Source: Alteromonas sp. (GTDB taxonomy: Bacteria; Margulisbacteria; Marinamargulisbacteria; UBA6595). Taken from it: a stretch of DNA of 11,081 nucleotides. Below, one piece after another: positions 4,580 through 10,823 of this stretch; position 1 is the stretch's first letter; each line of letters begins with the position of its first letter. The stretch lies in NCBI GenBank assembly GCA_964220215.1, contig CAXPTH010000015.1:1-11081 (forward strand). Reading direction: 5' to 3'. The translations under genes and the position numbers were made by a program. Below the pieces are notes generated by a model. The model saw nothing but the letters and a program-made list of their open reading frames with translations, made no database searches and had not been told where the DNA came from.

Positions 4580-4656
4580 TGGCGCGCCTGATAGGACTTG
4601 AACCTATTACCTCCAGTTCCGCAAACTGACGCTCTATCCGGATGAGCTACAGGCGC
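4580..4656 (-). tRNA. tRNA-Arg (anticodon GCG)
   Basis: Reverse complement folds as GCGCCTG TA GCTC-ATCCGGATA-GAGC G TCAGT-TTGCGGA-ACTGG AGGTA ATAGG-TTCAAGT-CCTAT CAGGCGC G CCA; 77 nt, encoded CCA, anticodon at 4622-4620. Confidence 0.97.
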
Positions 4657-8678: not shown

Positions 8679-8687
8679 ATTATATCA
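8679..8687 (-). promoter_or_regulatory. Extended -10 promoter (TGaTATAAT) upstream of comEC
   Basis: Perfect TGnTATAAT on the minus strand; its TGA is also the stop codon of the displaced DUF2237 3' fragment. Confidence 0.65.
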
Positions 8688-8741
8688 CAAGTTTGATTTA
8701 TGATAATACGGCCGTACGTTAACGCCGTTGAGGGTGTCTAA
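8685..8741 (-). pseudogene. Orphan diverged copy of the DUF2237 gene 3' end
   Basis: Translates LDTLNGVNVRPYYHKSNL*, against LDTLEGIELQPYYQKHELL* at the end of the intact gene; 8701-8742 aligns ungapped with 9118-9159 at 32/42 nt. Confidence 0.85.
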
Positions 8742-8742
8742 C
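8731..8742. repeat. 12-bp direct repeat AGGGTGTCTAAC, left copy (putative att core)
   Basis: Identical to 9148-9159; similarity ends abruptly after 8742/9159. Confidence 0.85.
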
Positions 8743-8787
8743 TTGACTTTCTGAATTCCAGTTGCTTGAGTCTTTATCAGTAACATA

Positions 8788-8816
8788 TTGCCCAATCAAT
8801 ATAAATTTTGTAAGAT
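8788..8816 (+). promoter_or_regulatory. Sigma70 promoter for the small-peptide transcript
   Basis: TTGCCC (8788-8793), 17-nt spacer, TAAGAT (8811-8816); predicted start near 8822. Confidence 0.65.
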
Positions 8817-8904
8817 TAAAATCAGTCGGTTAAAACCTGACGACAATGAGCTGGCTTTCGCCACACCTCAACAACACATTTATATGGTTTAGGAGGTGAT
8901 GATC

Positions 8905-9018
8905 ATGCTAGAAAAGATTATTAAGTATCTATGTTCAGTATTACTGATACTAAAATTAGCTTTAAGAATCTTAGAAGAACTGGCATTGACCTTAGAAGCT
9001 TTAGCCAGTTTCTTCTGA
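8905..9018 (+). CDS. 37-aa hydrophobic amphipathic peptide, candidate type I toxin: MLEKIIKYLCSVLLILKLALRILEELALTLEALASFF
   Basis: Below ORF-track cutoff. AGGAGGTGA SD at 8891-8899 with AGGAGG 8 nt before the ATG, upstream promoter, Leu-rich helix, anti-SD segments in both UTRs. Alternative in-frame ATG at 8899. Confidence 0.75.
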   Translation: MLEKIIKYLCSVLLILKLALRILEELALTLEALASFF

Positions 9019-9098
9019 ACAAAAATCCTGTTTCTCATTGGACAGGTAATGCTTCAAATGTACCAACCTAAACCCTTTTTTGTCCAGTTATTAGATCT

Positions 9099-9479
9099 CT
9101 AAAGTAGTTCATGTTTCTGATAATACGGCTGCAACTCGATGCCTTCAAGGGTGTCTAACGCTTGTTCATGCGTAGCGGTTGGGCGAATGGGTGGGGCGAC
9201 CCCGGCGTGATGGGCCTCTAGCCATCGGCTGGCGCATAAGCACCAGGTATCGCCCGGTTGCAACCCGGGAAAATCAAACTCGGGACGTGGTGTTTTTAGG
9301 TCGTTGCCCTGGGCTTCCGTAAAGTCCAGAAAGGCTTCGGTCATCACGGCGCAAACAACGTGAGCTCCGGTATCCAGGGCGTTGGTGTTGCAGTAGCCAT
9401 CTCTAAAAAATCCGGTACGGATATGGTGGCAGCATGGCTCTAGGGGCGTACCCAGGATATTGCGTGCGTTAGTGGGCAC
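9099..9479 (-). CDS. DUF2237 family protein
   Basis: NILGTPLEPC, TGFFRDGYC, D.GAHVVCA, FL.F...QGNDL.TPRPEFDFPGLQPGD.WCLCASRW.EA...GVAPP...ATH. GTG 9479 is a more plausible start than TTG 9503. Confidence 0.93.
   Translation of the reverse strand: MPTNARNILGTPLEPCCHHIRTGFFRDGYCNTNALDTGAHVVCAVMTEAFLDFTEAQGNDLKTPRPEFDFPGLQPGDTWCLCASRWLEAHHAGVAPPIRPTATHEQALDTLEGIELQPYYQKHELL
9148..9159. repeat. 12-bp direct repeat AGGGTGTCTAAC, right copy, inside the DUF2237 CDS
   Basis: Identical to 8731-8742. Confidence 0.85.
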
Positions 9480-9846
9480 GGGCGACTCGAATCCCGACGA
9501 CAACCACGCTTATCCAGGCCAGCATGATTAGGATTCCGCCCACTGGGGTGAGGGCCGTCCATTGGGGGGCGTTGGCGATGACCGCAGTGTAAATGCTGCC
9601 GCTAAAAAAGCCAGTGCTCAATACAAACAAATAGCCCGTATACGTTAAGTGAGTGCGAATGCTGGACGGTGGAGCGAGGGTGGCATACAGGCCGATGCTG
9701 GTGGATAGAATGGCGTATAGTTGGTGGTAGCGTAAGGCTGTCGCCATCATTGTCTGTTCATGAAGGGCTAGGGTAAGCCCGTGGTCAGCGTATGCGCCCA
9801 GCGCAACGGATGCAAATCCCAAGCAGGCACTGAGTATGATGAGCAT
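9469..9846 (-). CDS. DUF423 (YgdD/TMEM256) family membrane protein
   Basis: VALGAYADHGL, TALRYH, FFSGSIY, LTPVGGILIMLAW; ATG 9846 lies 2 nt after the upstream stop, so it is preferred to 9909. Confidence 0.9.
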   Translation of the reverse strand: MLIILSACLGFASVALGAYADHGLTLALHEQTMMATALRYHQLYAILSTSIGLYATLAPPSSIRTHLTYTGYLFVLSTGFFSGSIYTAVIANAPQWTALTPVGGILIMLAWISVVVVGIRVARAH

Positions 9847-9848
9847 GG

Positions 9849-10349
9849 TTAGTTGCTTGACTGAGTCCGAACTAACGGTGCCATTAAGGATCGCATCATG
9901 GTGCGCCATACGACACCCATGAGTGAATAAATAAAATTGGGCATGCGTTTGTGAATAAAGAAGGTTATTTCGGTGTTGATTTGTGTGGATTCGCCCGATT
10001 CGTTCAATTCAAAAATTAATGCTACGGGTCTAAATAGCCGAAATGTAACTATGTAGCTACCGTAAAAGTAGTCCATTTTTCGGTATGTGGGTGCATGAAC
10101 GGTGGAGAGAATGCCATTGGCAGATAATAAAGGGCCGTGATGATTGGTGTAGGTGCCTTCACAAAACGATGGGCGGTCTTGGCCGGGGGTTACGTATTCG
10201 ACTTTTGATAAATTCCAAAACGACCCTTGAAATGTGTTTATGTTGGATACATAGTCCCAACAGGTTGTGATGCTATTTTGGCATACATGAGACGATGTAA
10301 ACTTTTTTTCGCTAAAGTTGACCGGACATGGTTGTTTGTATGTGTGCAT
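9849..10349 (-). CDS. Hypothetical protein (possibly SRPBCC/START-like fold)
   Basis: 166-aa ORF co-oriented and abutting DUF423; WDYVSNINTF early helix and C-terminal helix loosely fit SRPBCC architecture; function not supported. Confidence 0.6.
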   Translation of the reverse strand: MHTYKQPCPVNFSEKKFTSSHVCQNSITTCWDYVSNINTFQGSFWNLSKVEYVTPGQDRPSFCEGTYTNHHGPLLSANGILSTVHAPTYRKMDYFYGSYIVTFRLFRPVALIFELNESGESTQINTEITFFIHKRMPNFIYSLMGVVWRTMMRSLMAPLVRTQSSN

Positions 10350-10478: not shown

Positions 10479-10823
10479 ATGAGTATGGATTCTAATATTA
10501 TTTCATTGTCATTATTAACGCCCATACGAGATTGTTTGGATCAGGCACGTCATCATATTCAGCAATCGGTAAATCATGTAATGGTTGAAACATACTGGAC
10601 GATTGGGAAACTGATTGTTGAGCATGAGCAACACGGCCAGTATCGTGCTGAATATGGCAAACAACAATTGGAACAGCTATCTGCCATTTTAACAACCGAT
10701 TATGGGAAGGGGTTTGACCCACGAAACTTACGAAATATGCGGTTGTTTTACAGAGCGTTTCCAATTTGGAACGCAGTGCGTACCGAATTGAGTTGTCTAA
10801 AAAATCAAATTAGTAGGAGTTAA
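10479..10823 (+). pseudogene. DUF1016 (YhcG) N-terminal domain only, truncated
   Basis: VNHVMVETYWTIGKLIVEHEQ.G..RAEYG, LT.DYGKGF..RNLRNMR.FY..FP, WNAVRTELS; the usual LSW.HY continuation and the C-terminal PD-(D/E)XK nuclease domain are absent, replaced by CLKNQISRS*. Confidence 0.8.

What the first reader, a model, noticed from the sequence alone, without database searches (positions are those of the whole stretch)
8788..9087. Unannotated type I toxin-like locus: small membrane peptide with SD masked by both 5' and 3' segments
Seen: promoter TTGCCC-N17-TAAGAT, a leader of about 80 nt, SD AGGAGGTGA and a 37-aa hydrophobic ORF (8905-9018). CACCTC (8864-8869) is complementary to GAGGTG (8893-8898). 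Downstream of the stop, ACCaaCCTAAACC (9062-9074) is complementary to GGTTTAGGaGGT (8886-8897), covering the SD, and is followed by a T-run. Established: a strong SD sequestered by a local anti-SD plus long-range 3' fold-back is the design of type I toxin mRNAs such as H. pylori aapA and hok. Inference: this is a type I toxin of a family I cannot name, activated by 3' processing. I could not locate an antitoxin promoter; the convergent DUF2237 transcript or an antisense RNA could serve.
Basis: partly seen in the sequence, partly recalled or inferred. Interest (0 to 1): 0.85.

Follow-up and report, generated by a model that had tools for sequence, protein, structure and literature searches.

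The report
Toxin-like peptide module in marine Margulisbacteria
A small repeated DNA module in an uncultured marine bacterium encodes a conserved 37-residue hydrophobic peptide behind a predicted ribosome-blocking RNA hairpin, and carries a promoter-like site on the opposite strand, so it is likely a new peptide-toxin / antisense-RNA pair in a bacterial group where our literature searches found none described.

Summary
It has three copies in this Ca. Marinamargulisbacteria genome and tandem arrays of up to five in related contigs. The ORF is under purifying selection (pN/pS 0.25-0.36), and a 26-nt leader block with the local anti-SD is invariant. The 3' fold-back onto the SD exists only in the window-type copy (-15.0 versus -5.0 kcal/mol in 7 of 7 array copies). 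Computed 3' trimming does not free the SD. The missing antitoxin promoter candidate overlaps that very segment: a minus-strand TG-n-TA.A.T site (9086-9057) is kept in 8 of 8 distinct 3' regions. The window copy sits in a 417-bp insertion that replaced the 3' end of DUF2237; both congeners have the empty site. No relative was found in 145 other genomes of the phylum or in the family libraries. Best reading: a new, lineage-restricted type I toxin-antitoxin family laid out like Ibs/Sib or TxpA/RatA (about 60%). Toxicity, transcription and the antisense RNA are untested.

The parts
8685..8742 (-). Displaced original 3' end of the DUF2237 gene (left copy of a 46-nt imperfect direct repeat, 8697-8742)
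   Evidence: Repeat; 96% identical to the gene end at the empty site of congener G002
8743..9159 (.). 417-bp insertion carrying the module and a replacement 3' end for DUF2237; shared core AGGGTGTCTAAC at 8731-8742 and 9148-9159; no recombinase gene inside
   Evidence: Empty site in 2 of 2 congeners and in one contig of run X18 (joint 8711 to 9148)
8788..8816 (+). Candidate sense promoter TTGCCC-17-TAAGAT; start inferred near 8824
   Evidence: Below scanner threshold. Array copies have TTGTCT-17-TATACT at the same 7-nt distance from the 5' hairpin. A variant in run X19 has 5 changes in the spacer and 0 in the hexamers
8825..8841 (+). Predicted 5' hairpin of the mRNA
   Evidence: Predicted in both the window and array types although the inner sequence differs
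8844..8850 (+). Leader segment CAATGAG, complementary to 9034-9040 in the 3' UTR (predicted 5'-3' pairing)
   Evidence: 7 of 7 pairs kept in 5 of 5 promoter-bearing variants, with one G-C/A-U double change; pairing probability 0.52-0.94 if the mRNA ends just after the 3' hairpin, 0.00-0.19 in longer forms
8851..8876 (+). Invariant 26-nt leader block: hairpin TGGC-TTTC-GCCA, anti-SD CACCTC (8864-8869), A/C-rich stretch
   Evidence: 0 mismatches in every copy found in the fetched loci; 0 of 26 columns differ between the two types
8891..8900 (+). Shine-Dalgarno AGGAGGTGAT, 10 bp complementary to this genome's 16S 3' end, predicted paired with the local anti-SD
   Evidence: Duplex with the 16S end -17.6 kcal/mol; opening cost 9.2 versus a genome median of 3.7 over 109 GGAGG+ATG sites
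8905..9018 (+). 37-aa ORF; predicted single amphipathic helix; GRAVY 1.38, net side-chain charge 0
   Evidence: pN/pS 0.25-0.36 against 7 other distinct ORF sequences, all 114 nt long
8973..9016 (+). Predicted hairpin inside the ORF (8973-8984 with 9004-9016)
   Evidence: 99% of cells paired, one A-U/G-C double change
9027..9046 (+). 3' UTR hairpin; on the minus strand it is followed by a U-rich tract (possible weak or shared terminator)
   Evidence: U-A/U-G and U-G/C-G changes keep it on the sense strand; 4-7 T in the 8 nt behind it on the minus strand in 8 variants; one pair broken in the X19 variant
9057..9086 (-). Candidate antitoxin promoter TGGACA-18-(TG-n)TACATT; antisense start inferred near 9050
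   Evidence: Scanner hit; TG-n-TA[CT]A[CT]T in 8 of 8 distinct 3' regions; scanner flags 4 of 5 copies in L015
9062..9074 (+).
9099..9503 (-). DUF2237 gene (PF09996), intact, ending in the replacement 3' end (right repeat 9114-9159)

Best explanation
This is likely a type I toxin-antitoxin module of a new family: a conserved 37-residue hydrophobic peptide gene whose ribosome-binding site is predicted to be held in a local hairpin, faced by a conserved promoter-like site that would make an antisense RNA from just behind the stop codon. Shown: ORF, copy number, purifying selection, invariant leader, opposite-strand promoter motif, insertion with gene-end replacement. Predicted: the leader hairpin that costs about 8-10 kcal/mol to open, a 5'-3' pairing between 8844-8850 and 9034-9040, and a single amphipathic helix. 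Inferred: the antisense RNA starts near 9050, pairs in cis with the 3' UTR (and, if it reads through the weak hairpin, with the whole ORF and SD as Sib does), and the duplex is destroyed by RNase III, which the genome encodes. When the antisense RNA falls, the peptide would be made, enter the inner membrane and lower the proton-motive force. The module spreads by tandem duplication and by occasional jumps to new sites.
For: Three copies in G000 and arrays of 2-5 copies in metagenome contigs; tandem repetition of a short hydrophobic ORF is a published search criterion for type I toxins (PMC2887945, passages). pN/pS 0.25-0.36, and 0.15-0.27 over residues 2-26. Invariant anti-SD and SD. 10-bp SD, as in TxpA and YonT, which have 11-12 bp (PMC3531473, passages). 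Leader folding z = -2.15 and -3.37. Antisense promoter motif in 8 of 8 distinct 3' regions while 12 of 34 columns around it differ between the two types. Peptide and inferred mRNA sizes fall in the T1TAdb ranges, 20-60 aa and 150-400 nt (PMC8594479). RNase III present. Of 23 matches to an anti-SD/SD/ATG pattern in 146 phylum genomes, only the 3 family copies lead to a 20-60 aa ORF with GRAVY above 1.
Against: No toxicity test and no stranded RNA data. The one RNA-run contig over an array copy (X19) also covers about 130 nt upstream of the inferred start, so it does not show the transcript. Promoter-like sites are not enriched over shuffles (3 versus 1.8 +/- 1.3; 10 versus 7.6 +/- 2.8). No match to any known toxin family or antitoxin RNA family. 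No clear sense terminator. If the antisense RNA stops at the first hairpin it is only about 35 nt, below the 60-200 nt range. 2 of 5 copies in L015 and 1 of 2 in G000:C29 have lost the sense promoter to a palindromic repeat yet keep ORF and antisense site. A tandem hydrophobic ORF with an antisense RNA can be non-toxic (YhzE-2, PMC2887945). The sequences fall into only two main types, so co-variation rests on single events.
Confidence: 0.6

Rival explanations
1. A non-toxic small membrane protein under tight RNA control that modulates a membrane partner (for example a transporter), with the antisense RNA as an ordinary regulator.
For: Purifying selection and the helix fit equally. The array lies head to head with a 393-aa dicarboxylate-type transporter ORF (family assigned by eye, not scanned) and the window copy next to comEC. 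Non-toxic look-alikes exist (YhzE-2).
Against: The two loci have unrelated neighbours, copy number varies from contig to contig, and the family was not found in either congener assembly (89% and 77% complete). That fits a selfish module better than a dedicated regulator.
Confidence: 0.25
2. A released amphipathic peptide (surfactant or antimicrobial, in the manner of phenol-soluble modulins or leaderless bacteriocins; comparison recalled, not tested) amplified in tandem for dosage.
For: A 35-residue amphipathic helix with a continuous hydrophobic face (moment reached by 69 of 5000 shuffles); near-identical peptides in tandem.
Against: Each copy has its own opposite-strand promoter-like site and a buried SD, which suggests silencing rather than bulk output. 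No exporter or immunity gene was seen among the flanking ORFs (read by eye for L015). Net charge is -1 to +1.
Confidence: 0.1
3. A non-functional or purely selfish DNA repeat whose ORF and promoter motifs are incidental.
For: Found in 1 of 146 phylum genomes; interleaved with a palindromic repeat whose core occurs 22 times in the genome; single complementarities are near chance.
Against: pN/pS about 0.3, no indel in the ORF while both UTRs have indels; invariant SD and anti-SD.
Confidence: 0.05

Closest known systems
Ibs/Sib of Escherichia coli (PMC4147584, passages; PMC2887945, passages)
   Same: Short hydrophobic ORF, five copies, repeated in one intergenic region, cis-antisense RNA on the opposite strand; the long read-through form of the antisense RNA here would likewise cover the ORF and the RBS.
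   Different: No sequence match; the peptide here is 37 aa (IbsA is 19 aa, listing); the 3' end of the antisense RNA here is unknown.
TxpA/RatA and BsrG/SR4 of Bacillus subtilis (PMC3531473; PMC4147584; passages)
   Same: Convergent layout with 3' overlap, near-perfect SD, SD held in a short local stem, RNase III available, location on acquired DNA.
   Different: Overlap there is about 120 nt with defined terminators; here the antisense start lies about 30 nt behind the stop codon, and no clear terminator or prophage context was found.
SprA1/SprA1AS and Fst/RNAII (PMC8167048, passages)
   Same: Convergent genes overlapping at their 3' ends; par shares a bidirectional terminator, which the 9027-9046 hairpin could be.
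   Different: Those antitoxins act in trans on the 5' region. Here a 38-nt antisense RNA pairs with the leader no better than shuffles (53-441 of 500).
   Same: Multi-copy small peptide, anti-SD motifs, a predicted 5'-3' long-distance pairing.
   Different: In aapA the 3' end carries the anti-SD and 3' truncation activates translation. Here the 3' anti-SD is not conserved, computed trimming does not open the SD, and the candidate antisense promoter lies in the 3' UTR.
TisB and DinQ peptides (PMC8309996, passages)
   Same: Single amphipathic helix with charged residues on one strip; these clusters rank 4th and 5th by language-model features (0.81, 0.80).
   Different: Scores under 0.9 are leads only; the TisB profile gives no match in this genome at E 10; their antitoxins are trans-encoded; the peptide here is 8-10 residues longer.
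TimP/TimR (PMC13000454, abstract and Introduction)
   Same: SD-sequestering stem-loop in the primary mRNA, with no need for processing; long-range pairing.
   Different: TimP's switch lies in the 5' UTR and was shown by experiment; here blocking the 3' hairpin changes the RBS-opening cost by -1.7 to +1.3 kcal/mol with no consistent sign.

Membership tests
Type I toxin-antitoxin systems (class) | Small protein of 20-60 aa, usually hydrophobic, on a short mRNA | tested here: met
   37 aa, GRAVY 1.23-1.58 in 8 distinct sequences; inferred mRNA about 230-270 nt
Type I toxin-antitoxin systems (class) | SD sequestered in cis by an anti-SD | tested here: met
   Predicted, not probed: pairing probability with the local anti-SD 0.98-1.00 in 7 full-length array copies, 0.57 plus 0.39 with the 3' segment in the window copy; 6 of 6 pairs invariant
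Type I toxin-antitoxin systems (class) | Antisense RNA with its own promoter, complementary to the toxin mRNA | tested here: inconclusive
   Conserved promoter motif; no stranded RNA evidence
Type I toxin-antitoxin systems (class) | Peptide toxic when expressed, neutralised by the RNA | not testable with these tools
   Needs expression experiments
AapA/IsoA and Hok/Sok type | 3'-end anti-SD locks the full-length mRNA; 3' truncation activates | tested here: not met
   Fold-back weak in 7 of 7 array copies; trimming leaves the SD closed
Any named type I family (Hok, Ldr, Fst, Ibs, TisB, DinQ, TxpA, AapA and others) | Sequence match of the peptide or antitoxin to the family model | tested here: not met
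   0 Pfam families at E 1, 0 NCBIfam for 6 of 6 peptides at E 10, no TisB match, no Rfam hit in the region at E 1. The DinQ profile is not in the library held and T1TAdb could not be searched
Ibs/Sib type layout | Antisense RNA spans the whole ORF and the RBS | tested here: inconclusive
   Start position fits; the first minus-strand hairpin is weak (-4.5 to about -7 kcal/mol) with a U tract of 4-7 in 8, so both a short and a read-through RNA remain possible
Fst/RNAII and SprA type | Antitoxin pairs in trans with the 5' region of the mRNA | tested here: not met
   For the short (38-nt) form only: duplex with the leader no better than shuffles in 5 of 5 copies
Integrative elements that restore the 3' end of their target gene (class recalled, not from a call) | Target gene end duplicated, element supplies a replacement end, recombinase encoded | tested here: inconclusive
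   Duplication and replacement end shown; no recombinase in the 417 bp

The most novel reading that the evidence does not exclude
The first type I toxin-antitoxin family of Margulisbacteria uses an antitoxin of only about 35 nt, a single hairpin that invades the 3' UTR loop and displaces a 5'-3' pairing the mRNA needs, and the whole 417-bp module moves as a recombinase-free cassette that swaps in a new end for the gene it lands in.
Probability: 0.12. Interest if true: 0.72.

Novelty: new member of a known kind. Interest (0 to 1): 0.45.

Why it matters
A 2025 paper states that type I systems were known only from Proteobacteria, Firmicutes and Tenericutes before its cyanobacterial case (PMC12390103, passages), and attributes this to search bias. 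A family in Margulisbacteria, unrelated in sequence yet with the same design, would support repeated independent invention of these modules. It is small enough to synthesise and test whole. The locus also catches such a module in the act of spreading, by tandem amplification and by an insertion with a visible empty site. It does not overturn anything until toxicity and the antisense RNA are shown.

Tried and rejected
Distant relatives: none found. The profile search of 1.84 billion representatives gave 2 hits, both family members. Six-frame search: 1 of 146 phylum genomes, G000 itself. The covariance model gave 2 weak hits outside G000 (E 1.8e-4 and 0.026), both AT-rich stretches without the leader or ORF. 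Viral contigs: 212 pattern stretches, none confirmed. Leader-pattern scans of viral contigs gave 120 and 4 loci, none with the module. GTDB scan: 1 hit (L019, 37% identity), which lies antisense inside a 1005-aa ORF and has no SD; rejected. No match in plasmids or phages, the PDB by sequence (one hit at E 0.84) or by fold, or PHROGs (best E 0.093). 3'-processing activation and the SD fold-back as family features: rejected. DUF2237 mRNA as the antitoxin: rejected because array copies lack it. Trans pairing of a short antisense RNA with the leader: chance level. An on/off switch through the leader/3'-loop pairing: not supported by energy calculations. Expression: Logan contigs are unstranded; X19 holds one contig over an array copy and X20 none; no conclusion drawn. 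The two small ORFs that ranked highest for SD burial on C21 are frames inside a tandem repeat, not this family. No complex prediction was run. Literature: searches for Margulisbacteria with toxin (22 papers, 15 listed), with toxin-antitoxin (4 of 4 listed) and for Marinamargulisbacteria (9 of 9 listed) showed no description of such a module in the listings; T1TAdb and TADB could not be queried and no supplements were read.

Full report
Observation. None of the complementarities is striking alone: 153 of 2000 shuffles match the 3' fold-back and 210 of 2000 the local anti-SD. The sense promoter is below the scanner's threshold. The case therefore rests on comparison.

Host and context. Members of the 90%-identity cluster of the window's NifU protein are labelled Ca. 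Marinamargulisbacteria; the DNA is held by marine, estuary and salt-marsh runs. The locus lies between comEC and DUF2237, both on the minus strand, in a dip to 33% GC.

A family. G000 has two more copies in tandem at the end of contig C29. Nine metagenome loci brought the total to 18 full-ORF copies in the 10 sources that hold one, 8 distinct at DNA level, in arrays of up to five; L018 holds only cut copies and was left out of the ORF counts. There are two main types, the window type and the array type, about 79% identical. All ORFs are 114 nt. Against the window copy pS is 0.39-0.56 and pN 0.12-0.17 (uncorrected; ratio 0.25-0.36). The peptide is predicted to be one helix over residues 2-36 (pLDDT 94, 6 sequences), with polar residues confined to about half of the wheel. 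The family is narrow: 1 of 146 phylum genomes, 2 of 1.84 billion representatives, and no match in Pfam, NCBIfam or Rfam, and only weak hits in PHROGs and the PDB. TisB and DinQ clusters appear in the language-model search at 0.81 and 0.80, which is lead level only, and the TisB profile does not match.

The leader. The block 8851-8876 is identical in every copy, as is the SD block, against about 45% change at synonymous sites. The SD pairs over 10 bases with this genome's own 16S end; the same 10-mer occurs four times in the genome, three of them in this family. The local hairpin costs 7.6-10.2 kcal/mol to open in the three G000 copies, against a median of 3.7 over 109 GGAGG+ATG sites. Leader folding beats shuffles (5 and 2 of 200). 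Invariant pairs cannot show co-variation, so the hairpin is a prediction backed by conservation.

It is a property of the window type: -15.0 kcal/mol there, -5.0 in 7 of 7 array copies. Five of its pairs are invariant, but these bases are also the extended -10 of the opposite strand. Removing the 3' end leaves the SD paired with the local anti-SD; opening costs change by about 1 kcal/mol in the window copy and fall by about 2 in 4 array copies. Only 5' trimming past the anti-SD lowers the cost clearly (to 4.4-5.5), and not in the window copy (8.4), where the fold-back acts as a predicted second lock. The aapA/hok model of 3' activation (PMC6733600, passages) is therefore not supported.

A different long-range pairing. 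Leader 8844-8850 is complementary to 9034-9040 in 5 of 5 promoter-bearing variants, with one G-C/A-U double change, and it dominates (0.52-0.94) if the mRNA ends just behind the 3' hairpin. This is one event between two types. A 7-bp match arises in 163-378 of 2000 shuffles, the window type is drifting towards A+T, and blocking the hairpin has no consistent effect on RBS opening. It is a lead, not a result.

The antitoxin candidate. The scanner finds TGGACA-18-TG-n-TACATT on the minus strand at 9086-9057. All 8 distinct 3' regions keep TG-n-TA[CT]A[CT]T with a TGG[AC]C[AC] hexamer 17-18 nt upstream, while 12 of 34 columns in this stretch differ between the types. Module similarity ends a few bases beyond the -35. 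The inferred start near 9050 is followed at once by the hairpin 9046-9027 and 4-7 T in 8 nt. The RNA is either about 35 nt or, since the hairpin is weak on this strand, a read-through product covering ORF and SD as Sib does (PMC4147584, passages). RNase III is present and a Rho-like ORF was seen. Such motifs are not enriched over shuffles by count, so the support is positional conservation only.

Mobility. The module lies between 46-nt imperfect repeats 417 bp apart. Congeners G001 and G002 and one X18 contig have the empty site. The left repeat is the original DUF2237 end (96% identical to G002), and the right one is a replacement that keeps the gene in frame. A plain tandem duplication does not explain this, since the insert holds sequence shared with the C29 array. 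No recombinase is encoded, so the route is open: a remnant of a larger element, a helper-dependent cassette, or recombination with foreign DNA. In arrays a palindromic repeat has replaced the sense promoter of some copies.

Expression. RNA run X19 has a 407-nt contig over an array-type copy, but it includes upstream DNA and is unstranded. It adds a variant with 5 changes in the sense spacer and none in the hexamers, and one change that breaks a pair of the 3' hairpin.

Comparison and verdict. The layout works like Ibs/Sib and TxpA/RatA (PMC2887945, PMC3531473, PMC4147584, PMC8167048; passages) and fits the class ranges in the T1TAdb paper (PMC8594479, parts 1-3 of 6). It is not a member of any named family by sequence. 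Class membership needs toxicity and the antisense RNA, both untested. PMC12390103 (passages) lists three phyla plus its cyanobacterial case; my searches (listings only, plus passages of PMC6349859, where 'toxin' does not occur) showed no Margulisbacteria example. Supplements were not read and could hold predicted loci. Verdict: likely new type I family, confidence 0.6, interest 0.45.

Noticed in passing
L015:2730-4680; L001 (G000:C29) 246-460; G000 C6, C8, C12, C18, C21: A palindromic repeat with a CCCCTAAAGGGGAC core (22 cores in the genome; many matches) interleaves the array and has replaced the sense promoter of some copies.
   Followed up: partly
window 8774-8786 and 9111-9123: A 13-nt inverted repeat (12 of 13 complementary) brackets the module inside the insertion; may be chance or a recombination arm.
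   Followed up: no
G000:C21 about 57,850-58,900 (minus strand): Tandem repeats of about 74 nt with CCCCTCC...GGAGGG hairpins beside what looks by eye like a DUF559-type nuclease gene; similar repeats were noted by earlier agents.
   Followed up: no
window 10479-10823 (+); L011:2411-3433: The DUF1016 (YhcG-like) ORF stops at 114 aa in the window but is 340 aa in L011, and the gene at window 9849-10349 is missing in L011: a second variable spot.
   Followed up: no
L011:1631-1873: DUF2237 carries an in-frame internal deletion (80 aa) in this contig although the insertion is present.
   Followed up: no
window 8706-8679 (-): Promoter-like site TTATCA-16-TG-n-TATAAT upstream of comEC overlaps the displaced DUF2237 end.
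   Followed up: no
window 8852-8863: The invariant leader hairpin reads GGC-GAAA-GCC, a GNRA tetraloop, on the minus strand and is slightly more stable there (-5.0 versus -4.1), which would fit a long antisense RNA.
   Followed up: partly
window 4583-4656 (-): A tRNA gene (Rfam RF00005).
   Followed up: no
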